A stretch of 64,000 nt of DNA from Trypanosoma brucei (Eukaryota). The notes beneath the pieces were generated by a model that saw nothing but the letters and a program-made list of their open reading frames with translations, did no database searches and was not told where the DNA came from. How positions within the stretch are numbered: position 1 is the stretch's first letter; every line of letters starts with the position of its first letter. The position numbers were made by a program, and so were the translations under genes. The DNA lies in contig CP000069.1 in the NCBI GenBank assembly GCA_000002445.1, positions 352,001 through 416,000 of the forward strand, in the 5' to 3' direction. Shown here in pieces: positions 37,986 through 63,201 of the stretch.

Positions 37986-40900
37986 TCAGAAAAGCACATC
38001 GGGCCCATGCCCTTGCTTCGTGTTAACACCTTTTGTCACCTGTAGGGATCTTGAAAGTGTGCCTTTCTCAGGCTCAGCGGCTCCTCCCACCTGCGAAGTG
38101 GCGTTGAAATCGCACGCAGCATGCGCATGAAAGTTGCGTATGTCAACTCGATGGCGCCGTAACAACTCAGCGAGGTTCGGTGAAGGCAAATAACTGGGTA
38201 GTACGGTGGGAATGAGAAAGAGTTTTTCATTCGTTCCGCCGGTGTTAACTCTTGGCACCCCTTTTGTTGGTATAATTGTCCCATCGACGTCCCCCATGGC
38301 CACCAGAGTGCTGGGTGGGGAGAGAAACTGGCAGCCGATATCACGGAGTAGATTTTCTATCGACTGGCCGCGGCGAGAAGCCACGAGCCTCGCTAACAAT
38401 TCCGCTCCTGGGCAATGTCCCACCGCCGCCGCTGCCGCTGGAGGTCTCAATTGTGGTTGTTGAGCGTTAGACCACGCGTTAAGTTTTGCGACCACCCGTT
38501 GAATGTAATCGGCGAAACTCACAACATTTCGCAAAGAGTTTTGGTACTCATGCAACACAATCAGCAGTGTACTCTGAACTACCTCATCCACAGATGGTGC
38601 GTCGTCGTCCAACACTACCTTTAGAATTCCCCTCCTCGTTTGCCGCCCCTTCCCGCCGCTGCCACTGTACGTACACTGCGGGCACACATCGGACACAACG
38701 CACCAATGCAAACTTTCCTCCTCACAAGCACCTCCCGCATCGTCTTTACGACATCGGTTCCCACTTTCGCTAGATTGATCGGTTGCCGTGCCGCCTGCCT
38801 CGCACTCATCATCAGCATCGACGGGTACGCCTCGCCACGGCTTTCCGGCATAAACCCTCATAACACTCTTCAGTTTCTGCACACTCAATGGAGTTGGAAA
38901 GCGCCACACTCCCCAATCATGTAGCATCACTGCATGCGCTCGTGTATGCGCGGTGTTCGTCAGTAGAGCGGCGTCAAAACCAGTGGAGGCAGCGGCAAGA
39001 TATCCTGCGAGAACAAACAGCGAGGGCGGCAATTCACTACCTGCGGGTTCAGTGGAGGCGCCAGGGCGCTCAGTGTCCAAAACCCAGACATGTAACGCTT
39101 GCAGCGTCATACCACTATCTTTTATTGGCGCTGCGCGAGTTACTGTGTAGGAGGGAGCATTTCCTATAAGCGTGCCCGCAACGGCCATCGGCAGCATCGC
39201 TGTCCCCCCTTCACCACGTGGTCGCCATTGTAGAGCGTTAAGAAACGACAAGGGGGATACATTACAGGATCTAAGTTCAACCGCCACATCGCTACGACTG
39301 ATGCTACTGACACTATTAGTCCCCCTCTTACGTAGTAGAAGGTCAGATAACGTGCCGCTACAGAAAGATCCCACCCACTCACGCCGCATACCGAACTGCA
39401 CAGCAAAGGAAAGTCGAGTAAGGTGGGTTACGCTCCGACAGTGATGATGGAAGCTTTTTTCCCGAAACCACAAATTGTGGCACACATAGCAGTAATAATC
39501 CTTATTACAAGGTGCTGTTTCCCCCTCCTCCGTTTCACAGCTGTGGTACTCGTGTTGAGAGGACCTCACAGTTGGCAAAGTTACCTTCCATTGAACCGCT
39601 CCAGTGAAGGTCACACGATGTATGCTTAGCAGTGCGTGTTGTTCGTCACTACCATCACTATTCACTCCACTGCTACTCACATCTTCATCAACACCGGGCG
39701 CAGGTACAGGCTCGCCTGACAAGATGACACCGTTACCAGTTGAACGGCAGATGCTACAGTCCTCATGGTCAGCATCGGCGGCTGCAGCCGCAATCGGTTT
39801 GGGAAAAAATTCTTCATAGCCCATACGCCGTGCGTCACTAAGAAGAAGGGAATGCTCCCGACCGTAGCTATCGTGCCATGTTACACAGGTATCAGATGCA
39901 GCAGAGGAATCTCCCTCAGTTTCTGTAAAGCGGAGACTAAACGTACGGTTGACCGTCCTTACACCCGGAACTGGAAGTGAACGATCCAAAGAAGCTACTT
40001 TTTCATGAGCCTCTGCCCGCCGAATCGATTCCGTCTCCCCATCGTTTCTGTCCTGCTCACCTGGTAAACGTACGGCTGATGACGCCGGTGGTGATGTGGG
40101 AGGCAGCATTGCCACCAGCCGTGTTAGTATATTCTGAATTGACACCAAAAGACTTATTCCAATAGGAGCTAATACAACCGCAGCCAAATTTCTTCCCTTT
40201 TCCGCTTCCATTAACCCTGCGGGGTCACAAGGCAGTGCGACCGCCGATAACAACCGGTCCTCTTCCTTACCTGAGTTGCCGCCTCTTCTGTCTCCATCCA
40301 CAGACCCATTAACCTCGCTACCAAATCGAACGACACCTGAACGCCTCGTGGAAAAAAGTTCAATCTGTTGAACATTGGTATCGGCTAGATATGGCGTAAT
40401 GACGTCGCGCAGCACCTCTGGTGTCAGGCGTTCAAGTAAACTCTGCTGATGCCGCTGGTCGCTGTGTAGCTCCACCGAAAAGGAGCATGTACGGTCTGCA
40501 TCCTCCTGCAGGGCACCAAGGTTACGCAGCATCCGCCTCTGGTGTGCACGGTGGGATGCATCCTCGCCACGCATGGTGTTCCTTGCAAATGCGGCTACGA
40601 AAGCTGCGCAAAGCCGGTCTTGTACGTGTCCAAATGTAAGCAGCGGTTTCTTGGACCTCTGATTCTGCTTTGGAGCCCTGGGCAATTGCGGTTGAAGTTT
40701 TCGGATAAGTTGTTCATCTTGTGTATACCATTGTGTCATAGTCCGGTGCTGTGATGAAGGACGGTGGGCGGAATGCTCAAGCGCGCAACGGTGAAGCCGC
40801 AGCAACGAATTGGCAAGTAGAACACGGTACGATTCAGGGAAGGTGGAGAGCACAAGCTGCTTAATAAGTGAGGCGCTGGGGCGGCGTTCCACCCTGTCAT

Positions 40901-41447
40901 GCTCACCATATAGCGCAAATACGTCATCTTTATCGCCACCCCCCACACCACTAGTGACAGCTTTTTCCTTATTCACAGTTTCATGTGAGTCGGAACCCTG
41001 TGTGACAAGTCTCCACAGGCGTAACGCGCACTGTGCCACGCTGCTATCTACAGTGCGAAGTGCCCTACCGTTCACGCGAAATTTTCGAAAAAAGGCCACC
41101 ACATCCGCACTGCTAGTACATGCGTACCATTCATAAAGGATTGAAAGCAGCATGAGTGGTTCACTCAGAGTGTGCCCACTGGTGCTTTTGCCCCTCTCTC
41201 CGATTTTAGAAGCTGTACTCCGCTGAATCAGAAGTGACTGCAAGTATTGTGCTGCTGGTGCACCTTCGCAGCTTTTGGAATCCCCAACCTGGACAGACAC
41301 GCGTGGATAGAGAAGTAACGCCGGAACAGTCATTGCGCAGGCGATAAGTATCGCATCCTCGATGCAGGCAAACTGCAAAGCATAGTACAACATTAATGCT
41401 TGCTCATGAGGTATGGGGGAAGTATGAGACAAACTCCCCCTTTGCGG
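37986..41447 (-). CDS. C-terminal part (HA2/ratchet-like region plus long extension) of the DEAH-box helicase, separated from the upstream ORF by an apparent frameshift
   Basis: The frame is open from the stop at 41448-41450 and the track start codon is TTG. The N-terminal residues IPHEQALMLYYALQFACIEDAILIACAMTVPALL...GHTLSEPLMLLSILYEWY resemble the HA2 domain of DHX helicases (LSKMLIAS..GCSEEILTIVSMLSV..GDHLTLLNVYNQW). That domain normally follows the winged-helix domain found at the end of ORF 41404..44370. Confidence 0.6.
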   Translation of the reverse strand, partial: PQRGSLSHTSPIPHEQALMLYYALQFACIEDAILIACAMTVPALLLYPRVSVQVGDSKSCEGAPAAQYLQSLLIQRSTASKIGERGKSTSGHTLSEPLMLLSILYEWYACTSSADVVAFFRKFRVNGRALRTVDSSVAQCALRLWRLVTQGSDSHETVNKEKAVTSGVGGGDKDDVFALYGEHDRVERRPSASLIKQLVLSTFPESYRVLLANSLLRLHRCALEHSAHRPSSQHRTMTQWYTQDEQLIRKLQPQLPRAPKQNQRSKKPLLTFGHVQDRLCAAFVAAFARNTMRGEDASHRAHQRRMLRNLGALQEDADRTCSFSVELHSDQRHQQSLLERLTPEVLRDVITPYLADTNVQQIELFSTRRSGVVRFGSEVNGSVDGDRRGGNSGKEEDRLLSAVALPCDPAGLMEAEKGRNLAAVVLAPIGISLLVSIQNILTRLVAMLPPTSPPASSAVRLPGEQDRNDGETESIRRAEAHEKVASLDRSLPVPGVRTVNRTFSLRFTETEGDSSAASDTCVTWHDSYGREHSLLLSDARRMGYEEFFPKPIAAAAADADHEDCSICRSTGNGVILSGEPVPAPGVDEDVSSSGVNSDGSDEQHALLSIHRVTFTGAVQWKVTLPTVRSSQHEYHSCETEEGETAPCNKDYYCYVCHNLWFREKSFHHHCRSVTHLTRLSFAVQFGMRREWVGSFCSGTLSDLLLRKRGTNSVSSISRSDVAVELRSCNVSPLSFLNALQWRPRGEGGTAMLPMAVAGTLIGNAPSYTVTRAAPIKDSGMTLQALHVWVLDTERPGASTEPAGSELPPSLFVLAGYLAAASTGFDAALLTNTAHTRAHAVMLHDWGVWRFPTPLSVQKLKSVMRVYAGKPWRGVPVDADDECEAGGTATDQSSESGNRCRKDDAGGACEEESLHWCVVSDVCPQCTYSGSGGKGRQTRRGILKVVLDDDAPSVDEVVQSTLLIVLHEYQNSLRNVVSFADYIQRVVAKLNAWSNAQQPQLRPPAAAAAVGHCPGAELLARLVASRRGQSIENLLRDIGCQFLSPPSTLVAMGDVDGTIIPTKGVPRVNTGGTNEKLFLIPTVLPSYLPSPNLAELLRRHRVDIRNFHAHAACDFNATSQVGGAAEPEKGTLSRSLQVTKGVNTKQGHGPDVLF

Positions 41448-44370
41448 TTAAACAAACGTCGTTGTAGAGGTCGATCAAACGTGGCATGTCCTTAGATAAT
41501 TCAAGGCAGCTATCACCTATACAATGAACATCGTCACCACTCCTTTGTTTCGGGCTTTTGGAGCACTGTAGAAGTCCCAGGTCTAAGAGCTGTCGGATGC
41601 CCTGTGCTATCGCCTTCGGTTTAGGTGCATCTGGTAGTAATAACAACAGCGAACTTGCCTGGTGAGGAAACAAGTACTTGACCCGAAGCAGCAATGAAGC
41701 TACATTGGCTGCGGCACTCTCAGGAATTGTGTGTGCAGGCGCCGCCGGAACCAAGCCGCTCAAACTCCTCTGGTTGCTGGTCAGAAAGAAAGCTTTCCCG
41801 CTTTCATTGTCTTCCCCCCTATTATCCTTTACTTTCCCATCATCACCCTTTTCGTCTGAAGTGACTAGCTCTTCCTGTCCACAATTGCCGTAGTGGGTCC
41901 CCACAACCTCCTTTTGGAGTGTGAACATACGCCTCGGAGCCAAACGAATAACAAAACTATCGCAGGTCCTTCCAGCCCTCCCCGCACGCTGCCGTGAGCT
42001 GCTAACGCTGACGACAGCCGTGCTGCGGAGCGTGACACCTGTTAATGGATCAGAAAAGAATCGCCGCTCGAGGCAAGAGTCTACAACACAACGCACGTTA
42101 GGAATGGTGACGGAGCTCTCAGCAACGTTCGTTGACAAAATAATTCGATAAGGGAACGGAGAGGTAGTTTCACGTAGTTGTCGTTGTGGACTTCCAACTG
42201 CCGTGGCGTGCAGGAGGGCAACAGAAAATGAACATCCTTCGTACTCCAAAAATGTGACATTTCCGCTACCCGCGTTGTCGTAAGCATAGTTCATCGTGCT
42301 ATCAACACTAATTTTGGTGGTGGTACCCGCAGGTTCTGCATGTCGCTGGGTATCATTAGTCCCTTCGTCGTTTACAAGCGTTTTTCTGCACAGAACTTCA
42401 AGAGATTGCAACACAAGGGACATTTCAGCAAACCCGGGAAGAAACACCAATATGCTCTCCGGTTGCTCGTTGTTTTGATCTTGAGTAATCCCCCCTTTCT
42501 CTTGCACGGCACCACTCCCCTCAGTCGTGTGGGGCTTTGACCTACAGCTGGCTAGGTTCGCGATGCTTTGTAGCGTGAAGAGTACAAATTGTGCCAGTGC
42601 ACGTGCCTGAGGAGAATGTATCTCGGGGCTAAAACGTATATATGAAAAGAAGTGCACCAACGAAGCCATCACTCGGCGTGCGGGCGGTAGCAACAGGGGA
42701 CACAACCTTCCATTTAGCGAGGATACTACTTTACTTCCGTTATCCGCACTCTTCTCATCAGCACCCAACAGCTGCGACGACTCCAGGGCGCTGGGAAGGT
42801 CGTCGATGAAATACTCCTCAAGACGATAGGGACCACTTCCCGCTAAGCCGCTGCGCACTGCAACGTCCGAAACCTCATCCGGTAGCTGGGCTGCCTCATT
42901 GCCTAGAGAGAGAACATACGGTTTGCAGAAAGCGGAAAGATTCCTCGTTGCTTCAGACGGTGGTGCGCTAAACTGCGCACCTATGAGATAAGATACCATT
43001 TGCTCTGCCGAAAGCGTGGCAGACATCAAAATCAGATGGCGCATGCCCCAAGATTGTTCCCTGTCTTCACCATGCTCTCGTTGGTAAGCCCTAAGCAACT
43101 GTTGTTTTGCCCACGCAAGAAGCAAATCCGTTTCCATATCACGACAGTGTGCCTCATCGATGATCAGTGTCGTGTGAGACAGTAAACTGTGGTCGTGCTG
43201 CAAAGCGTTGAGTATGTAGCCGGGCGTAGCGTATATGATTTCACTTGCAGCTGAGAAACAGCTGTCGCCGCCGACTGCGTAGCCCACGCGGTCGCCAACG
43301 TTGGATGCCGCCGGTGTTGACGAAGACGACGCCAAAATTGCTGCTGTAAACTTTGCCAGCTCCACGCACGCAAGACGCGTGGGTTGTGACACTATAATAC
43401 AAAGCCTACTGCTCGCACCAAACACTGTAGCGTACTCCCGCGTGCTGACATTAACAGGGAACGGAGAAGGCGGCAGAAACGTCTCAACTGACCTCATTAC
43501 ACCTTCTTTAGAATCGATGACACTACTACTGGCGGCAGAGGACACAATTTTCGCTTTGTGAGAGATGTCAATTCGTTGTAACATGCGCTGCCAGTGGCTG
43601 TCCAGAAGAAACAGTGGAACCAAGCTGCTTTTCCCCGAGCCAGTCGGCGCGTTGCACACAAACACGTCCGTTACTGGCTGCGGAAAATCAGTTAAAATTG
43701 CGGCGGGTTCGTTTCCTCCGTTATTCTTTAACCGTTTAGCGCTTGCAGGAGGAAGGGGGACTGCTGAGTTTGCGAGAAACAAATTGGTCCATTCGGATCG
43801 CTTCTGCCATACGCCCAGGCGCTGAAGTGACGGATAACTCTGCGCCACGCACTGCCAATCCATTTGTTTGCGGAGTACATTCTCTCGCAATTTACTAATA
43901 AGCGATGATGAAACAACAGGCTTTCCCTGTGCAACAAAGGCTCGGGGTTTTGGAACCACCCTCCCACGAGCCTCGAGCGGGGTATTCGATTTTGCAGTCG
44001 ATGTGAAAATTTCCGCAAGCATAGTACCAACAGGCTTTGGAGACACGCCAACGGTGGGCCCCGCTTTTGGCTTCTTCCGCTTAGAAATTGTCTCAAGCAG
44101 TTTACTCATGCCGTGAGCGCCGTTCTTGCTAGAAATAGTGCGTTCGTTAACGTCACATCTTCCTTCAAGGTCTGTGGTGGGTTCGGTGCAATTCGGTGAA
44201 TTAACAACTGGGTTCTCGACCGGTTCTGTCGCTTCTGTCAGATTGTCAACACGCGTGAAGTTGTCACCTGAGCCTATTTTAGTTGAATACGGTCTATTTA
44301 TCTGATATAGAACGATACGCCGCAACAGCGTACGGTGATCTTCGCGTAGCACCAACACAAAGCGATGCAT
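41404..44370 (-). CDS. DEAH-box ATP-dependent RNA helicase, N-terminal part (helicase core + winged helix); ORF terminates where a 1-nt frameshift would continue into 37986..41447
   Basis: ATG verified at 44370-44368. The helicase motifs are I NAPTGSGKS, II IIDEAHCRD (DEAH), III LILMSATL, V ILSTNVAESSVTIPN and VI QRAGRAGR. A winged-helix-like block PESAAANVASLLLRVKYL...LLPDAPKPKAIAQGIRQLLDLGLL follows motif VI. Confidence 0.8.
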   Translation of the reverse strand: MHRFVLVLREDHRTLLRRIVLYQINRPYSTKIGSGDNFTRVDNLTEATEPVENPVVNSPNCTEPTTDLEGRCDVNERTISSKNGAHGMSKLLETISKRKKPKAGPTVGVSPKPVGTMLAEIFTSTAKSNTPLEARGRVVPKPRAFVAQGKPVVSSSLISKLRENVLRKQMDWQCVAQSYPSLQRLGVWQKRSEWTNLFLANSAVPLPPASAKRLKNNGGNEPAAILTDFPQPVTDVFVCNAPTGSGKSSLVPLFLLDSHWQRMLQRIDISHKAKIVSSAASSSVIDSKEGVMRSVETFLPPSPFPVNVSTREYATVFGASSRLCIIVSQPTRLACVELAKFTAAILASSSSTPAASNVGDRVGYAVGGDSCFSAASEIIYATPGYILNALQHDHSLLSHTTLIIDEAHCRDMETDLLLAWAKQQLLRAYQREHGEDREQSWGMRHLILMSATLSAEQMVSYLIGAQFSAPPSEATRNLSAFCKPYVLSLGNEAAQLPDEVSDVAVRSGLAGSGPYRLEEYFIDDLPSALESSQLLGADEKSADNGSKVVSSLNGRLCPLLLPPARRVMASLVHFFSYIRFSPEIHSPQARALAQFVLFTLQSIANLASCRSKPHTTEGSGAVQEKGGITQDQNNEQPESILVFLPGFAEMSLVLQSLEVLCRKTLVNDEGTNDTQRHAEPAGTTTKISVDSTMNYAYDNAGSGNVTFLEYEGCSFSVALLHATAVGSPQRQLRETTSPFPYRIILSTNVAESSVTIPNVRCVVDSCLERRFFSDPLTGVTLRSTAVVSVSSSRQRAGRAGRTCDSFVIRLAPRRMFTLQKEVVGTHYGNCGQEELVTSDEKGDDGKVKDNRGEDNESGKAFFLTSNQRSLSGLVPAAPAHTIPESAAANVASLLLRVKYLFPHQASSLLLLLPDAPKPKAIAQGIRQLLDLGLLQCSKSPKQRSGDDVHCIGDSCLELSKDMPRLIDLYNDVCLTAKGEFVSYFPHTS

Positions 44371-45320: not shown

Positions 45321-46394
45321 CTATTGGATAGATCTGTCAACAGAAAACATTTCCGTTAGTGAGAAGGTCTGATCAAGGTCTATAGCTTTTGAAGCACTGA
45401 GCTGTGGCACTTGTTTGAACCTTTTCCTCTTCAACATGTCGCGAGTTTCGATTAGAAGTTTACCATACGACAACGACTGGTTGTTCATAAGCATGCACGT
45501 GATACACTGCGTGGCCGCACCACCAGCGCCTGTAGAACCCGTACCAAATGTGGCAGTGTTCTTAACATCAGCAGATGTTTGCTCATCAGCACAACCAGAA
45601 ATCATCATCACATCCCCCAGAACATCATTTCCCTCACGAATTCGCTTCATGTGTGGCGTACCCGATGCTTGCTCACCTCCACTGCAGACATAGGTAAAAG
45701 GAAGATCCATAATGGAGCCTGAGTGGCAACAATCGAACACAGCTGTGAGTCGTACCTTTTCAGGAAGCCTAGAGAAGAGAAGTTTGTGTATATCATCATC
45801 AACAATGCATCCACTTTTCTGGAAGTCCACAGGGGCAATGCATTGATCGTACTTCTCGTCACTGTCGCCTCTGGATTTGCATTGTGTACCATGACCAGAG
45901 TAATGGAAGAAAAGGACATCACCTGGTTTTGCATCCTTCACGAGCCACGCCATGTAACGTACGATATTGTCGCGGGTTGGCTGGTCGGTCCTCCCGGGGA
46001 AATTGTCCTCGTCGACGAGTATGACGGCTTCGTTGATTGGGAGCCCCTTTTTCTGCAGTGTGGCGAGCATTTGCTTGACATCATTGCAGCAACCGGAGAG
46101 CGCTGCAGAAGTTCCATAGTAATTAATTCCAATAAATAAAGCTCGAACTGTTTGGCCAGGAAGAGGTGTCGCGACCCATGGTTGTTCGCCGTGAGCATCC
46201 CCCGCATTTGCAACAGCGGCATCTACGTCCACCTTGGGGGGAGGTGGTTGAAGTCCCAGAGCTTGTACAAGGTACGGCTGGGCTGTCTGCCACAGTTCCA
46301 TACCAATTTTCACAAAATCATTGGTGCCCTTTGCACTACTTGCTTTTGATATTGTAGAGCAGAGACTCAAAAGACACCTTGGGTCCACGGCCAT
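45321..46394 (-). CDS. MCA3: metacaspase (357 aa; matches MCA3-type copy)
   Basis: ATG verified. The caspase-like His/Cys dyad is intact (FFHYSGHGTQ and VFDCCHSGSIMD). It is nearly identical to the downstream 347-aa copy except for the N-terminal ~45 aa. The length of 357 aa and the position fit T. brucei MCA3, from recollection. Confidence 0.85.
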   Translation of the reverse strand: MAVDPRCLLSLCSTISKASSAKGTNDFVKIGMELWQTAQPYLVQALGLQPPPPKVDVDAAVANAGDAHGEQPWVATPLPGQTVRALFIGINYYGTSAALSGCCNDVKQMLATLQKKGLPINEAVILVDEDNFPGRTDQPTRDNIVRYMAWLVKDAKPGDVLFFHYSGHGTQCKSRGDSDEKYDQCIAPVDFQKSGCIVDDDIHKLLFSRLPEKVRLTAVFDCCHSGSIMDLPFTYVCSGGEQASGTPHMKRIREGNDVLGDVMMISGCADEQTSADVKNTATFGTGSTGAGGAATQCITCMLMNNQSLSYGKLLIETRDMLKRKRFKQVPQLSASKAIDLDQTFSLTEMFSVDRSIQ

Positions 46395-48173: not shown

Positions 48174-49217
48174 CTATTGGATAGATCTGTCAACAGAAAA
48201 CATTTCCGTTAGTGAGAAGGTCTGATCAAGGTCTATAGCTTTTGAAGCACTGAGCTGTGGCACTTGTTTGAATCCTTTCCTCTTCAACATGTCGCGAGTT
48301 TCGATTAGAAGTTTACCATACGACAACGACTGGTTGTTCATAAGCATGCACGTGATACACTGCGTGGCCGCACCACCAGCGCCTGTAGAACCCGTACCAA
48401 ATGTGGCAGTGTTCTTAACATCAGCAGATGTTTGCTCATCAGCACAACCAGAAATCATCATCACATCCCCCAGAACATCATTTCCCTCACGAATTCGCTT
48501 CATGTGTGGCGTACCCGATGCTTGCTCACCTCCACTGCAGACATAGGTAAAAGGAAGATCCATAATGGAACCTGAGTGGCAACAATCGAACACAGCTGTG
48601 AGTCGTACCTTTTCAGGAAGCCTAGAGAAGAGAAGTTTGTGTATATCATCATCAACAATGCATCCACTTTTCTGGAAGTCCACAGGGGCAATGCATTGAT
48701 CGTACTTCTCGTCACTGTCGCCTCTGGATTTGCATTGTGTACCATGACCAGAGTAATGGAAGAAAAGGACATCACCTGGTTTTGCATCCTTCACGAGCCA
48801 CGCCATGTAACGTACGATATTGTCGCGGGTTGGCTGGTCGGTCCTCCCGGGGAAATTGTCCTCGTCGACGAGTATGACGGCTTCGTTGATTGGGAGCCCC
48901 TTTTTCTGCAGTGTGGCGAGCATTTGCTTGACATCATTGCAGCAACCGGAGAGCGCTGCGGAAGTTCCATAGTAATTAATTCCAATAAATAAAGCTCGAA
49001 CTGTTTGGCCAGGAAGAGGTGTCGCGACCCATGGCTGGTGGCCATGAAGGCCTTTTGCGTCTCTGAAAGCGGCATCTACGTCAACCCTCCGGGGAGGTGG
49101 TTGAAGTCCCAGAGCTTGTACAAGGTACGGCTGGGAGCTCACTGCGTTTAACCAGCCGAGCCCCACATAATCAGCTAACTGGCCCGCATCACAGAGTTGT
49201 GTAATTAAGGAGCACAT
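48174..49217 (-). CDS. MCA2: metacaspase (347 aa; matches MCA2-type copy)
   Basis: ATG verified at 49217-49215. The same catalytic H and C motifs are present. It is a paralogue of the 45321..46394 gene, and the only substantive difference within the CDS is the N-terminal segment (MCSLITQLCDAGQLADYVGLGWLNAVSSQPYLVQ... versus MAVDPRCLLSLCSTISKASSAKGTNDFVKIGMELWQTAQPYLVQ...). Confidence 0.85.
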   Translation of the reverse strand: MCSLITQLCDAGQLADYVGLGWLNAVSSQPYLVQALGLQPPPRRVDVDAAFRDAKGLHGHQPWVATPLPGQTVRALFIGINYYGTSAALSGCCNDVKQMLATLQKKGLPINEAVILVDEDNFPGRTDQPTRDNIVRYMAWLVKDAKPGDVLFFHYSGHGTQCKSRGDSDEKYDQCIAPVDFQKSGCIVDDDIHKLLFSRLPEKVRLTAVFDCCHSGSIMDLPFTYVCSGGEQASGTPHMKRIREGNDVLGDVMMISGCADEQTSADVKNTATFGTGSTGAGGAATQCITCMLMNNQSLSYGKLLIETRDMLKRKGFKQVPQLSASKAIDLDQTFSLTEMFSVDRSIQ

Positions 49218-50053: not shown

Positions 50054-52411
50054 CTATGATACTTCGGTGCTTTTTAAGCTCTCTTGCATGTTGGCCAGTT
50101 CTTGCTCTTGTTCCAAAAGCCACTCCATCCCGCCCTTTGAATTGAATTCTTCGTGTGCTTTTGCATACTTGGCCAACTCCTTTGAAAGCTTCTTCAGTTC
50201 CTTTTCCCCAACTACTTCACCACGTGAGTTACTGGTGGGGAGTCCAGTTTCCTCGTCGAAGGTGGCGTACACACTCCCGCTTTGCATCTTGAAGTAATCT
50301 TTCGGAGAGGATGTGTAATTCCTCCACTTTTCCACAAGCTTCTTCTTTGTCTCAATTTGGTTCTGCAACTTCCTCCGCCTGTCGTTGGCCTGTTGCTCTC
50401 TCCGCTCAGAGATTTCCCGCAGCAAAACGGCTGGGTCGTCTCTCTTCCACGTGGTTGGCCCATTGGGACTGTCCTCTATTCGGATACCGGCCTGTGCAAG
50501 CCATTCGTCCCGGATAGCGTCACATAAGGGAAGAAAGTTTGCTGTTGTACCGCTAGCCTTAGCTTCACTACGTACTGAATCGCGGAAGCGAAGCAAAGCT
50601 TCCATCACAGGTACCAATTGGTCATCCGTTTGTCGTGTTTTTGTGAAACCAACCATGTCATTCCCATCCACCACACCAAATACCTGTAGTATCCGGGTAA
50701 CATAACGACCGACCTTGTGCACCAATGTGGCACTGGGGCGTTGTCCTGTGACAAGATACCGGTTTGTCTCGCTCACAAGTCCCATGATCGCTTCCATAGC
50801 GGTGGGGGTGTCAAAGTTGTTGCGCAATGCCGCGTCCACGGCGCTCTCGGTGGAAATCCAGGCCTCATTCAACTTGCGGTCGTGCTCATTGAAGCCCTGT
50901 ATTTCTTTCAGTGTATCACTTCGAAGCACCATATCAACACTTCCAAAGAAAGAACGCAAAACTCTTTCGCGCTCCTTTGCCTCGTCAATGCTTTGATCAG
51001 AGAAATTCATTGCCTTATTCCATTGGTTTGCAAGAAAAAGGAGCCGCATCGTACGCGGAGTTACACCCAGGTCATCCAAAGCATGACGAATAGTAATGAA
51101 ATTCTTCAGACTCTTGCTCATCTTCAGCCCTTTAATGTGTAGGTGACCGCAGTGCAAAAAATAGTTCACCCATTGATGTTGCATACTGTATGCTTCACTC
51201 TGTGCACACTCGTTGTCATGGTGTGGAAACTTCAGGTCGCATCCACCACTATGAATATCCATATTTGTGCCGAGTATATCAGAGGCCATAACCGAGCACT
51301 CAATGTGCCAACCCGGTCTTCCGGCACCCCAAGGTGAAGGCCAGTGGGGTTCACCAGGCTTTGAGAATTTCCACAGCGCGAAATCGTTGGGACTCCGCTT
51401 CTCACCGGCAACACATGCGGCAAGTGCGCCCTCACCTTCCGCCATTTCGGCTTCGGTCGTGTTGCATTCATCGCGCTCGCTTATGGGCTTTAGCTTTGGA
51501 TAGTTGTGCCCCGCCCGTATGAAAGCGGTCGTATCAAAGAACACCGAAGTTTCGCCAGAATAGGCGAAACCGTTGTCCATAATCCTTTGAATAAAGTTGA
51601 CCACTTGCGGAACATACTCTGTCACGCGCGTAATGACATCAGGATCCTTCACCCCGAGGCGCTTCATATCTTCAAAAAAAAGCCGCTCATAACGCCGTGC
51701 ATGATCATCAAATATTTTTTGGTCGGTCACAGTGTGACCCTCGAGCTGGTCCAGCAGGTCACCGTTAATACCTGAGGCCGCATCAAACAGTTCGTCAAAG
51801 TCGCCAGCCTTAATAGCGCTTTGAATACGACCACTTGTGTCACTGAACTGTGTTTCCTTAAGTGCGAGTTCCATGATTTTCTCTTCCCTCTCCATCCGAA
51901 CACGGCTAGAAGTACCCTCTGGCAGCGCTTGCGACAACTTTTCCCTCGTCTCCGAGAGGGCACGCGAAGCCGATCTCTGCGCTTCCACTGTAAATTTAAC
52001 AAGTTTCTCCATATTACCACCCTCAAGAGTCACATCGCGAAAATGACGCAAAAGTGAAGAAACCCTCGCCCGCTTAATAATCTTATCGTCAATATCCGTA
52101 ATATTCATCTGATAAATTACTTTATACCCAAAGAAATCTTCCATAATGCGCCGTAGGATATCAAAAGTAAGGTAAGCGCGCGCATGGCCCATATGAGAGA
52201 CATCATATACCGTTGGCCCACAAGTGTACCACCGCACCAACCGCCCCTCACGAGGTGCAAACTTCTCAAGGCACTCAGTCATGGAATTAAGAACACAAAC
52301 ATCATTGCCATCAACATTCAAAGGCGGATACCACGGCGGATGTCGAGAACGTTTCACAGGTTCACACACATTCAAACCATCTGCTAATAACAAACCGTCA
52401 CTTTCCTTCAT
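50054..52411 (-). CDS. CysRS: cysteinyl-tRNA synthetase (class I aaRS)
   Basis: The HIGH motif (VSHMGHARAYLTFDILRR) and KMSKS motif (LKMSKSLKNF) are present, with CysRS-type spacing and a characteristic WPSPWG...GWHIECS block. The first codon of the track ORF at 52492 is TTG, so the start was moved to the first ATG at 52411-52409 (MKESDGLLL...). A polypyrimidine tract and a CAG lie on the sense strand just upstream. Confidence 0.85.
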   Translation of the reverse strand: MKESDGLLLADGLNVCEPVKRSRHPPWYPPLNVDGNDVCVLNSMTECLEKFAPREGRLVRWYTCGPTVYDVSHMGHARAYLTFDILRRIMEDFFGYKVIYQMNITDIDDKIIKRARVSSLLRHFRDVTLEGGNMEKLVKFTVEAQRSASRALSETREKLSQALPEGTSSRVRMEREEKIMELALKETQFSDTSGRIQSAIKAGDFDELFDAASGINGDLLDQLEGHTVTDQKIFDDHARRYERLFFEDMKRLGVKDPDVITRVTEYVPQVVNFIQRIMDNGFAYSGETSVFFDTTAFIRAGHNYPKLKPISERDECNTTEAEMAEGEGALAACVAGEKRSPNDFALWKFSKPGEPHWPSPWGAGRPGWHIECSVMASDILGTNMDIHSGGCDLKFPHHDNECAQSEAYSMQHQWVNYFLHCGHLHIKGLKMSKSLKNFITIRHALDDLGVTPRTMRLLFLANQWNKAMNFSDQSIDEAKERERVLRSFFGSVDMVLRSDTLKEIQGFNEHDRKLNEAWISTESAVDAALRNNFDTPTAMEAIMGLVSETNRYLVTGQRPSATLVHKVGRYVTRILQVFGVVDGNDMVGFTKTRQTDDQLVPVMEALLRFRDSVRSEAKASGTTANFLPLCDAIRDEWLAQAGIRIEDSPNGPTTWKRDDPAVLLREISERREQQANDRRRKLQNQIETKKKLVEKWRNYTSSPKDYFKMQSGSVYATFDEETGLPTSNSRGEVVGEKELKKLSKELAKYAKAHEEFNSKGGMEWLLEQEQELANMQESLKSTEVS

Positions 52412-52480
52412 CGCAAAGCTGCAATTAAAAGAAAACGAAGTTCTGAAAAAATAACGTAAAGAAAAACGAAACGTTGTAAA
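52412..52480 (-). promoter_or_regulatory. probable trans-splicing signal for CysRS (polypyrimidine tract + AG acceptor ~9 nt upstream of ATG)
   Basis: Sense-strand sequence upstream of the ATG: ...tttttacgttattttttcagaacttcgttttcttttaattgcag|ctttgcgATG. Kinetoplastid mRNAs are matured by SL trans-splicing at an AG downstream of a poly-Y tract; this is established knowledge applied here by inspection. Confidence 0.4.
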
Positions 52481-52803
52481 AGATACAAACAACTAAAAAA
52501 AGTAAAAAAAAAGAACTAAAGCAAAAAAAGGAAAGGAAAAAAGAAAATAGCAAACAAATAAAAAAACACACGCGTGGCTAAGACGGCATCAGCACTCACT
52601 GTACCGGAGCGCAGCACATTCTGCTATGCACATACCACACGCACATGCCCTCCAGGTGTATTACAGTTCCACTACACAGCCGCTCGCCGAAGAAGATAGA
52701 ATTGAGGGGGAGTAAAAAGGGAAGGAAATAAAAACAAAAACCAAGCAATAATGAACGAGAAACACCAATCACAAGGTGAAGCGCAACCCAAGACCACGCC
52801 ACC

Positions 52804-54387
<1,584 letters not shown>

Positions 54388-54567
54388 CTATGCACATACC
54401 ACACGCACATGCCCTCCAGGTGTATTACAGTTCCACTACACAGCCGCTCGCCGAAGAAGATAGAATTGAGGGGGAGTAAAAAGGGAAGGAAATAAAAACA
54501 AAAACCAAGCAATAATGAACGAGAAACACCAATCACAAGGTGAAGCGCAACCCAAGACCACGCCACC

Positions 54568-56151
<1,584 letters not shown>

Positions 56152-56331
56152 CTATGCACATACCACACGCACATGCCCTCCAGGTGTATTACAGTTCCAC
56201 TACACAGCCGCTCGCCGAAGAAGATAGAATTGAGGGGGAGTAAAAAGGGAAGGAAATAAAAACAAAAACCAAGCAATAATGAACGAGAAACACCAATCAC
56301 AAGGTGAAGCGCAACCCAAGACCACGCCACC

Positions 56332-57915
<1,584 letters not shown>

Positions 57916-58095
57916 CTATGCACATACCACACGCACATGCCCTCCAGGTGTATTACAGTTCCACTACACAGCCGCTCGCCGAAGAAGATAGAATTGAGGG
58001 GGAGTAAAAAGGGAAGGAAATAAAAAAAAAAACCAAGCAATAATGAACGAGAAACACCAATCACAAGGTGAAGCGCAACCCAAGACTACGCCACC

Positions 58096-59676
<1,581 letters not shown>

Positions 59677-59856
59677 CTATGCACATACCACACGCACATG
59701 CCCTCCAGGTGTATTACAGTTCCACTACACAGCCGCTCGCCGAAGAAGATAGAATTGAGGGGGAGTAAAAAGGGAAGGAAATAAAAAAAAAAACCAAGCA
59801 ATAATGAACGAGAAACACCAATCACAAGGTGAAGCGCAACCCAAGACTACGCCACC

Positions 59857-61437
<1,581 letters not shown>

Positions 61438-61617
61438 CTATGCACATACCACACGCACATGCCCTCCAGGTGTATTACAGTTCCACTACACAGCCGCTCG
61501 CCGAAGAAGATAGAATTGAGGGGGAGTAAAAAGGGAAGGAAATAAAAACAAAAACCAAGCAATAATGAACGAGAAACACCAATCACAAGGTGAAGCGCAA
61601 CCCAAGACCACGCCACC

Positions 61618-63201
<1,584 letters not shown>

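What the first reader, a model, noticed from the sequence alone, without database searches (positions are those of the whole stretch)
41404..41447. DEAH-box helicase gene broken into two ORFs by a single-base difference in a G5 homopolymer (plus 41415-41419)
ORF 41404..44370 carries the complete DEAH helicase core and the winged-helix block but stops right before the HA2/ratchet domain. The next ORF, 37986..41447, in the -1 frame, begins with clear HA2-like sequence (IPHEQALMLYYALQFACIEDAILIACAMTV...GHTLSEPLMLLSILYEWY). The two frames overlap for 44 nt with zero intergenic space, which is incompatible with trypanosome mRNA processing because no room remains for poly-Y and AG signals. Removing one G from the gggg g run gives ...AKGEFVSYFPIPHEQALMLYY..., which even restores a DHX-like FPxxP motif. 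The locus would then encode one ~2130-aa helicase. This is either a homopolymer sequencing or assembly error, or a genuine strain-specific frameshift, in which case the product is a truncated helicase lacking HA2/OB domains, i.e. a pseudogene in progress.
Basis: partly seen in the sequence, partly recalled or inferred. Interest (0 to 1): 0.7.

Follow-up and report, generated by a model that had tools for sequence, protein, structure and literature searches.

The report
Reference-genome frameshift splitting one helicase gene
One extra G in the Trypanosoma brucei TREU927 reference splits a single 2127-residue DEAH-box helicase gene (Tb927.6.920) into two reading frames; a 2015 paper already noted that re-sequencing of the same strain did not show it, so it is most likely a reference-sequence artefact.

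Summary
On the minus strand, ORF A (41404-44370, 988 aa, DEAH core) and ORF B (open 37986-41447) overlap by 44 nt. Deleting one base of the + strand G5 run at 41415-41419 gives one 2127-aa protein. That protein has the same length as, and is 99% identical to, the intact helicases of T. b. gambiense DAL972 and T. equiperdum OVI.

Four other T. brucei-group assemblies carry four bases at this run, where the window has five. More distant trypanosome orthologues read straight through as ...GEFV[SA]Y[FL]P[IL]PHEQAL.... This places the indel in this run and not in the second homopolymer of the overlap.

The window is T. b. brucei TREU927 chromosome 6 (Tb927_06_v4:352001-416000), and the locus is Tb927.6.920 plus the former gene model Tb06.3A7.270. 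Carnes et al. 2015 (PMC4288722, supplementary tables) list exactly this site (393415, G deleted, His986fs) in T. evansi. They state that the frameshift in Tb927_v4 was "not seen in Tb927dn resequencing".

The best reading is one gene and a reference error, already documented. A real frameshift allele on one of the two TREU927 haplotypes is not excluded. A fixed pseudogene, two separate genes and programmed frameshifting are all unlikely. Interest is low.

The parts
41415..41419 (-). Five-base homopolymer (GGGGG on +, CCCCC on the coding strand) that carries one base too many. It equals Tb927_06_v4:393415-393419.
   Evidence: Searches give the sequence. One search shows DAL972, T. equiperdum OVI, T. 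b. equiperdum and Logan ERR7929162 all reading TTCCCCATA where the window reads TTCCCCCATA. Searches give the T. evansi STIB805 row: 393415, ref G, deleted, 50 of 58 reads, His986fs, Tb927.6.920.
37986..44370 (-). The whole helicase gene. It encodes one 2127-aa DEAH/RHA-type protein once a base of the run is removed.
   Evidence: Searches give the repaired ORF. Searches show 2127 aa, 99% identity to P0001 and 4 differences from P0059. One search shows invariant columns through both halves in 14 kinetoplastid orthologues.
41404..44370 (-). ORF A, the gene model Tb927.6.920 (988 aa). It holds an N-terminal extension, RecA1, RecA2 and most of the winged-helix block, and ends at the premature TGA at 41406-41404.
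   Evidence: Pfam DEAD (E = 1.7e-07) and Helicase_C (E = 2.4e-07). 'His986fs' fits a 988-aa model.
37986..41447 (-). ORF B, open from 41447. From its first ATG at 41393 it equals the former gene model Tb06.3A7.270 (3408 nt, 1135 aa). It holds the ratchet-like helical domain, a long kinetoplastid-specific region with a C2H2 finger, and a conserved C-terminus.
   Evidence: One search gives Tb06.3A7.270 at Tb927_06_v4:389986-393393(-), length 3408. Pfam HA2_C is weak.
43627..43650 (-). Helicase motif I (APTGSGKS).
   Evidence: T243, G244, G246, K247 and S248 are invariant.
43147..43158 (-). Helicase motif II (DEAH).
   Evidence: D405, E406 and H408 are invariant.
41968..41991 (-). Helicase motif VI (QRAGRAGR).
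   Evidence: Q794, R795, G797, R798, G800 and R801 are invariant.
39423..39491 (-). C2H2 zinc finger (C1627, C1630, H1643, H1649), a putative dsRNA-binding JAZ-type finger.
   Evidence: The columns are invariant. Pfam zf-C2H2_jaz matches 2 of 14 orthologues (best E = 8.1e-05).

Best explanation
The locus is one gene, Tb927.6.920 joined with the former model Tb06.3A7.270, on T. b. brucei TREU927 chromosome 6. It encodes a 2127-residue kinetoplastid-specific DEAH/RHA-type helicase. In order, the protein has RecA1, RecA2, a winged helix, a ratchet-like domain, and a long C-terminal region with a C2H2 finger.

The 2005 Sanger, BAC-based reference carries one G too many in a homopolymer: G5 at window 41415-41419 where G4 is expected. 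This shifts the frame after Pro985, at the boundary between the winged helix and the ratchet domain. A stop follows three codons later.

The extra base is most likely an artefact of the reference, from base-calling, the sequenced clone or the culture used. Re-sequencing of TREU927/4 did not show it, so the parasite would make the full-length protein.

- **Shown here:** the single-gene architecture, the exact site, and the four-base state in all other genomes examined.
- **Taken from the literature:** the absence of the frameshift on re-sequencing.
- **Inferred:** that the discrepancy is an error and not one of two alleles.
For: - **Source of the window.** Ten neighbouring ORF products are exact matches to TREU927 proteins AAZ11648-AAZ11657. 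The accessions run consecutively across the locus with no protein deposited for either half.
- **Length of the run elsewhere.** DAL972, T. equiperdum OVI, T. b. equiperdum and a Logan assembly have 4 bases where the window has 5. OVI otherwise differs from the window at only 5 of 6385 positions.
- **Repaired protein.** It has 2127 aa, the same length as P0001 and P0059, with no gap.
- **Continuity in distant orthologues.** T. congolense, T. cruzi, T. c. marinkellei and T. rangeli read GEFV[SA]Y[FL]P[IL]PHEQAL across the junction.
- **Homology across the junction.** The family profile aligns across it to Spindle-E (i-Evalue 9.7e-05), and phmmer aligns residues 965-1046 to Prp43 501-583. For the AF2 model of residues 880-1340, the top 50 PDB matches are all DEAH/RHA helicases.
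- **Published record.** In PMC4288722, S4 Table lists Tb927_06_v4:393415, ref G deleted, 50 of 58 T. evansi reads, His986fs, Tb927.6.920. [quoted passage not shown] Position 393415 maps to window 41415 through the Tb06.3A7.270 coordinates.
- **Background rate.** The same paper reports 58 homozygous indel discrepancies between TREU927/4 Illumina reads and the Sanger reference.
Against: - No reads could be examined here.
- Tb927dn was assembled from TREU927/4 reads that did not match the reference. Its intact copy therefore proves that a G4 allele exists, not that a G5 allele is absent.
- In the same study only 58 of 1630 indels called in TREU927/4 reads were homozygous, so most discrepancies of this kind are allelic.
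- The stored copy of S5 Table, which would give the TREU927 read frequency at this site, is cut before chromosome 6.
- A 5-base run is not normally difficult for finished Sanger sequence.
- TREU927 carries three private substitutions, all non-synonymous and all downstream of the shift. This is what relaxed constraint on a real broken allele would look like, although three is far too few to test.
Confidence: 0.7

Rival explanations
1. TREU927 really carries the frameshift on one of its two homologous chromosomes. The BAC that was sequenced (3A7) came from that haplotype, so the haploid reference shows the broken copy while the other allele is intact. The broken allele would yield a 988-aa helicase lacking the ratchet domain and everything downstream, probably non-functional. 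Its mRNA would still be expressed.
For: [quoted passage not shown]
- Tb927dn was built only from reads that did not match the reference, so it would recover the intact allele even if a G5 allele exists.
- Allele-specific premature stops, with no transcript decay, are documented in T. brucei Lister 427 (PMC8445201).
- The three TREU927-private substitutions are all non-synonymous and all downstream of the shift.
Against: - The authors who inspected the locus described the frameshift as 'not seen' on re-sequencing, not as heterozygous.
- The near-identical OVI genome and four other genomes, counting T. evansi, have the intact state.
- The three private changes are not statistically informative. 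The chance that all three fall downstream is about 0.16 from the length fraction alone, computed.
Confidence: 0.22
2. The frameshift is genuine and fixed (homozygous) in TREU927, so the helicase is a young strain-specific pseudogene.
For: - The base is present in the deposited reference.
- No protein was deposited for the locus in the TREU927 record, so the original annotators accepted the disruption.
Against: - Re-sequencing of TREU927/4 yielded a copy without the frameshift.
- The gene is conserved over its full length across kinetoplastids.
- Apart from the indel, the gene differs from the intact OVI gene at only 5 positions.
Confidence: 0.05
3. The two ORFs are decoded as one protein by recoding. 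Either the ribosome shifts +1 on UUC-CCC-C (tRNA-Pro slipping on CCC-C), or the polymerase slips on the C5/G5 run during transcription.
For: - CCC-C is a slippery context for +1 shifts in other systems (own knowledge; general review PMC5009743, listed).
- The zero-frame stop lies only three codons downstream.
Against: - The site is not conserved. All five other T. brucei-group genomes examined are simply in frame with C4, and so are the more distant orthologues. A programmed site would be conserved.
- To my knowledge, no nuclear programmed frameshifting is known in trypanosomes.
Confidence: 0.01
4. These are two independent neighbouring genes, as in the old annotation (Tb927.6.920 and Tb06.3A7.270), each with its own mRNA.
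For: Both were once separate gene models. ORF B has an ATG at 41393.
Against: - Every orthologue is a single protein.
- The split falls inside a contiguous helicase C-terminal module.
- The ORFs overlap by 44 nt with no intergenic region.
- T. evansi has one fused CDS, TevSTIB805.6.990.
Confidence: 0.01

Closest known systems
Documented discrepancy at Tb927.6.920 / Tb06.3A7.270 in the Tb927_v4 reference (Carnes et al. 2015, PLoS Negl Trop Dis, PMC4288722, S4 and S6 Tables)
   Same: It is the same locus, the same base (Tb927_06_v4:393415 = window 41415) and the same consequence (His986fs; two gene models fused into TevSTIB805.6.990 in T. evansi). The paper also says the frameshift was not seen on re-sequencing TREU927.
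   Different: Nothing of substance differs. This analysis adds four further assemblies with the 4-base state, the placement of the break at the winged-helix/ratchet boundary, and the caveat that an allele on one haplotype is not formally excluded.
Intact orthologues: T. b. gambiense DAL972 CBH11589.1 / XP_011773874.1 and T. equiperdum OVI SCU65882.1 ('helicase, putative', 2127 aa)
   Same: They match the repaired window protein in length, at 99% identity or better, and share the neighbours MCA3 upstream and the SET-domain gene downstream.
   Different: They have four C on the coding strand where the window has five.
DEAH/RHA helicases with solved structures (Spindle-E 9nhs_G, DHX29, Dhr1/DHX37, Prp43, DHX36, HrpA/HrpB)
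   Same: They share the RecA1/RecA2 motifs and the winged-helix and ratchet module.
   Different: - The trypanosome protein is about twice as long.
- Its HA2 match is below the Pfam threshold and no Pfam OB_NTP_bind match was found.
- It has large kinetoplastid-specific insertions and a C-terminal region of about 800 aa with a C2H2 finger.
- No orthology to a particular DHX subfamily was established.
Allele-specific premature termination codons in T. brucei Lister 427 (Cosentino et al. 2021, PMC8445201)
   Same: These are frameshifting indels that truncate an ORF on one haplotype and that appear as artefacts or pseudogenes in collapsed or haploid references.
   Different: That study phased both haplotypes with reads. 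Here the allelic state in TREU927 is unknown.

Membership tests
DEAH/RHA (SF2) helicase | Conserved core motifs I (GxGKS/T), II (DEAH), III (SAT) and VI (QRxGRAGR) in two RecA-like domains | tested here: met
   ORF A contains APTGSGKS, DEAH, SAT and QRAGRAGR. Pfam DEAD and Helicase_C score above their cut-offs. PDB hits reach 3.6e-21 with phmmer and 7.3e-36 with the family profile.
DEAH/RHA (SF2) helicase | C-terminal winged-helix plus ratchet (HA2) module directly after RecA2 | tested here: met
   The family profile aligns across the junction to Spindle-E 592-683 (i-Evalue 9.7e-05). The top 50 Foldseek PDB matches to the model of residues 880-1340 are all DEAH/RHA helicases, with 199-314 aligned columns. 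Pfam HA2_C alone is sub-threshold: E = 0.014 for ORF B, and 7 of 14 orthologues match with best E = 0.0053.
DEAH/RHA (SF2) helicase | OB-fold domain (Pfam OB_NTP_bind) after the ratchet | tested here: inconclusive
   No PF07717 match at E <= 0.1 in any of 14 orthologues. The model has low confidence beyond residue ~1200 of the protein. A conserved block around residues 1247-1283 could be a divergent OB start, but this was not shown.
Genuine (fixed) pseudogene | The disabling mutation is reproducible in independent sequence from the same strain | not testable with these tools
   No TREU927 reads or second TREU927 assembly were available here. The literature reports that the frameshift was not seen on re-sequencing, which argues against membership.
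Genuine (fixed) pseudogene | Relaxed constraint downstream of the lesion | tested here: inconclusive
   The three TREU927-private substitutions are all non-synonymous and all downstream, but three events cannot support a test.
Programmed ribosomal frameshift / transcriptional slippage site | The shift site and the two-frame arrangement are conserved in orthologues | tested here: not met
   The four other T. brucei-group assemblies, and T. evansi in the published table, are in frame with a 4-base run. Distant orthologues are single ORFs.
Reference sequencing/assembly error | The reference disagrees with all re-sequencing reads of the same strain (a homozygous discrepancy) | not testable with these tools
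   PMC4288722 S6 Table says 'not seen in Tb927dn resequencing'. The per-site TREU927 read frequency (S5 Table) is cut from the stored copy.

The most novel reading that the evidence does not exclude
TREU927, the reference strain of T. brucei, genuinely carries a loss-of-function frameshift on one haplotype of a helicase conserved across kinetoplastids, and the truncated allele is expressed. The strain would then be a natural hemizygote for this uncharacterised 2127-aa DEAH/RHA protein. Its C-terminal half (Tb06.3A7.270) appears, with 'Low' confidence, in the list of mitochondrial-proteome proteins analysed in PMC4288722.
Probability: 0.22. Interest if true: 0.2.

Novelty: already known. Interest (0 to 1): 0.1.

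Why it matters
The matter is mainly practical. Anyone using the TREU927 reference for Tb927.6.920, whether for RNAi or CRISPR design, tagging, proteomics databases, RNA-seq counting or orthology tables, should treat window 37986-44370 as one 2127-aa gene. The 988-aa product and an orphan 'hypothetical protein' are not separate entities. C-terminal tagging at the ORF A stop, or peptide searches against the split models, would mislead.

It also shows that homopolymer indels still sit in a finished Sanger reference, and that comparison with sister genomes finds them quickly. It opens no new biological question. The helicase itself is uncharacterised and may deserve study, but that is independent of the frameshift.

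Tried and rejected
- **Second homopolymer as the indel site.** The + strand C5 run at 41436-41440 was considered. Deleting a base there would give ...TAKGSLSHTSPIPHEQ, which destroys the GEFV.Y.P block conserved in all orthologues.
- **Strain identification by exact look-up.** Looking up two long window proteins with their stop codons included returned nothing. The cluster look-up without stops then identified TREU927.
- **Independent TREU927 sequence.** Neither half under any ATG start, nor a TREU927-identical full-length protein, is in the protein collection. The 4-member cluster holds only DAL972, OVI, T. b. equiperdum and one gambiense-like Logan contig.
- **Poly-pyrimidine content.** The stretch upstream of the ORF B ATG was compared with true intergenic regions. 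The longest Y run was 10, against 11-16 in the intergenic regions and a mean of 9.2 in coding sequence, so this does not discriminate.
- **Literature searches that found nothing useful.**
  - Tb427.06.920 and Tb06.3A7.270 gave no hits.
  - The GBE 2022 TriTryps pseudogene paper has no supplements held.
  - The TrypTag supplements do not contain Tb927.6.920 in the stored text.
  - The ILRA paper concerns Lister 427 only.
  - The stored S5 Table of PMC4288722 stops before chromosome 6.
- **Solved structure of this protein.** No T. brucei chain was found in the PDB; only distant DEAH/RHA relatives matched.
- **Relaxed selection.** The private-substitution count (three, all non-synonymous and downstream) is too small to use.

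Full report
**1.

On the minus strand the sequence reads ...ACC GCA AAG GGG GAG TTT GTC TCA TAC TTC CCC CAT ACC TCA TGA.
- ORF A (41404-44370) encodes 988 aa and ends ...GEFVSYFPHTS*.
- The neighbouring frame is closed by a TAA at 41450-41448. It is then open from 41447 down to the stop at 37988-37986, reading PQRGSLSHTSPIPHEQALMLYY....
- The two frames therefore overlap by 44 nt (41404-41447).
- The + strand at 41415-41419 is GGGGG.
- Deleting one base of that run joins the frames into a 2127-codon ORF reading ...AKGEFVSYFPIPHEQALMLYY....

**2.

The repaired protein retrieves a 2127-aa 'helicase, putative' of T. b. gambiense DAL972 (CBH11589.1) at 99% identity and 100% coverage. It also retrieves single-ORF orthologues in T. 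congolense, T. cruzi, T. c. marinkellei and T. rangeli, and more distant kinetoplastid proteins of about 2000-2950 aa.
- The DAL972 and T. equiperdum OVI proteins have exactly the same length as the repaired protein. They differ from it by 19 and 4 substitutions with no gap.
- All five trypanosome orthologues read [TS]A[KM]GEFV[SA]Y[FL]P[IL]PHEQAL across the junction.
- This fixes the extra base between the F/L-P and I/L-P codons, that is, in the coding-strand C5 run. Repair in the other homopolymer would destroy the conserved GEFV.Y.P block.
- At the DNA level, DAL972 (FN554969.1), T. equiperdum OVI (CZPT02000448.1), T. b. equiperdum (CM010677.1) and a Logan assembly of ERR7929162 all read TTCCCCATA where the window reads TTCCCCCATA.
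- The OVI gene otherwise differs from the window at only 5 of 6385 positions.

**3. Where the window comes from**

Ten other ORF products in the window are exact matches to T. b. brucei TREU927 chromosome 6 proteins AAZ11648-AAZ11657. They include Tb927.6.860, MCA3 and MCA2.

The accessions are consecutive across the helicase locus: AAZ11655 is the SET-domain gene and AAZ11656 is MCA3. Neither half of the helicase, under any ATG start, exists as a deposited protein. The TREU927 record therefore carries no protein for this locus.

Counting gene identifiers in steps of ten from Tb927.6.860 gives Tb927.6.920. A 2021 paper calls this gene a putative helicase (PMC8612549).

**4. The discrepancy is already documented**

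All of this comes from the supplementary tables of Carnes et al. 2015 (PMC4288722).
- **S4 Table** lists, for T. evansi STIB805 reads mapped to the TREU927 reference: Tb927_06_v4, position 393415, indel, length 1, reference G, variant '-', 86.2%, 50 of 58 reads, His986fs, Tb927.6.920. His986 is the H of ...YFPHTS* in ORF A.
- **S2 Table** places the gene model Tb06.3A7.270 ('hypothetical protein, conserved', 3408 nt) at Tb927_06_v4:389986-393393(-). This is exactly ORF B from its first ATG (window 37986-41393, 1135 aa plus stop). The window is therefore Tb927_06_v4:352001-416000, and 393415 is window 41415, the first G of the run.
- **Main text.** Tb927dn is a de novo assembly of public TREU 927/4 Illumina reads that did not match the reference. 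The main text also reports 58 homozygous indel discrepancies between those reads and the Sanger reference, of unknown cause.

**5. What the protein is**

- **Core.** ORF A carries motifs I (APTGSGKS), II (DEAH), III (SAT) and VI (QRAGRAGR). Pfam DEAD and Helicase_C score above threshold.
- **Relatives.** The nearest solved relatives are DEAH/RHA helicases, including Spindle-E, Prp43, Dhr1/DHX37, DHX29, DHX36 and HrpA/B.
- **Position of the frameshift.** It falls after Pro985. In the Prp43 alignment, residues 965-1046 match Prp43 501-583, and YFPIPHEQALML lies opposite QFPLDPMLAVML.
- **Strength of the HA2 evidence.** ORF B alone gives only a sub-threshold Pfam HA2_C match (E = 0.014, 16.4 bits against a cut-off of 21.3), and 7 of 14 orthologues give similarly weak matches. 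A profile of 14 orthologues, however, aligns the junction-spanning stretch to Spindle-E with i-Evalue 9.7e-05.
- **Fold evidence.** An AlphaFold2 model of residues 880-1340 (mean pLDDT 63, pTM 0.67, well predicted around the junction) has only DEAH/RHA helicases among its top 50 PDB matches. The Foldseek E-values themselves are weak, 5e-03 and above.
- **OB fold.** It was not detected.
- **C-terminal half.** It is conserved across kinetoplastids and includes an invariant C2H2 finger that resembles the dsRNA-binding JAZ type in two orthologues.
- **Mitochondrial-proteome listing.** ORF B's former model is one of the mitochondrial-proteome proteins analysed in PMC4288722, with 'Low' assignment confidence. 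That would imply peptides from this frame were detected, but I did not see the primary data.

**6. Explanation and rivals**

- **Best (0.70):** one gene, with a surplus G that is an artefact of the 2005 reference.
- **Main rival (0.22):** a real frameshift on one TREU927 haplotype, captured because the BAC-based reference is haploid.
  - Tb927dn was built only from non-matching reads.
  - Most indel calls in TREU927/4 reads were not homozygous.
  - Allele-specific premature stops exist in T. brucei (PMC8445201).
  - The three TREU927-private substitutions in the gene are all non-synonymous and all downstream of the shift, though three events prove nothing.
- **Fixed pseudogene (0.05):** contradicted by the re-sequencing comment.
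- **Programmed +1 frameshifting or transcriptional slippage (0.01):** fails the conservation test, because every other genome is simply in frame.
- **Two independent genes (0.01):** contradicted by every orthologue and by the split falling inside a contiguous domain module.

**7. Verdict**

The feature is ordinary and already recorded in the literature. Its value is as an annotation correction. I could not examine reads, so the choice between a reference error and an allele on one haplotype rests on a one-line published comment. The decisive check is a read count at Tb927_06_v4:393415-393419.

Noticed in passing
L004:~2980 (gene nt 328; T. b. equiperdum CM010677.1): This assembly has its own 1-nt deletion in a T-run near the 5' end of the same helicase gene. 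As a result its annotated protein (RHW71782.1) starts at Met117 and has 2011 aa instead of 2127. This is probably a homopolymer error in that assembly.
   Followed up: partly
window 39960-39962, 39561-39563, 39531-39533: Three substitutions are private to TREU927 (V1470, S1603 and T1613, where the four other T. brucei-group sequences have I, P and K). All are non-synonymous and cluster within 430 nt downstream of the frameshift. No private change lies upstream. They could be further reference errors, allele-specific variants or chance.
   Followed up: partly
window 39423-39491: The C-terminal half of the helicase has an invariant C2H2 zinc finger (C1627, C1630, H1643, H1649). It matches Pfam zf-C2H2_jaz, a dsRNA-binding finger, in 2 of 14 orthologues. 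This suggests an RNA-duplex-binding accessory module in a DEAH/RHA helicase.
   Followed up: partly
window 52804-63195: Six tandem ORFs of about 525 aa, spaced about 1.76 kb apart, encode cathepsin-L-like cysteine peptidases (Inhibitor_I29, Peptidase_C1 and DUF3586). Further along the minus strand from the array lie a Cys-tRNA-synthetase-like ORF (50057-52492) and the metacaspase pair MCA2 (48177-49217) and MCA3 (45324-46394).
   Followed up: partly
L002:9697-11332 and L003:1295-2044: The DAL972 SET-domain neighbour is flagged 'LOW QUALITY PROTEIN' and has 556 aa, against 544 aa in TREU927 and OVI. The OVI metacaspase upstream of the helicase is called as only 249 aa. These are further signs of small assembly or annotation differences among the sister genomes at this locus.
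   Followed up: no
window 41404-44370 and 37986-41393: The two halves had separate identifiers in Tb927_v4 (Tb927.6.920 and Tb06.3A7.270). The GenBank/RefSeq TREU927 record carries no protein for either. Expression and proteomics tables keyed to Tb927.6.920 may therefore cover only the N-terminal 988 aa.
   Followed up: partly
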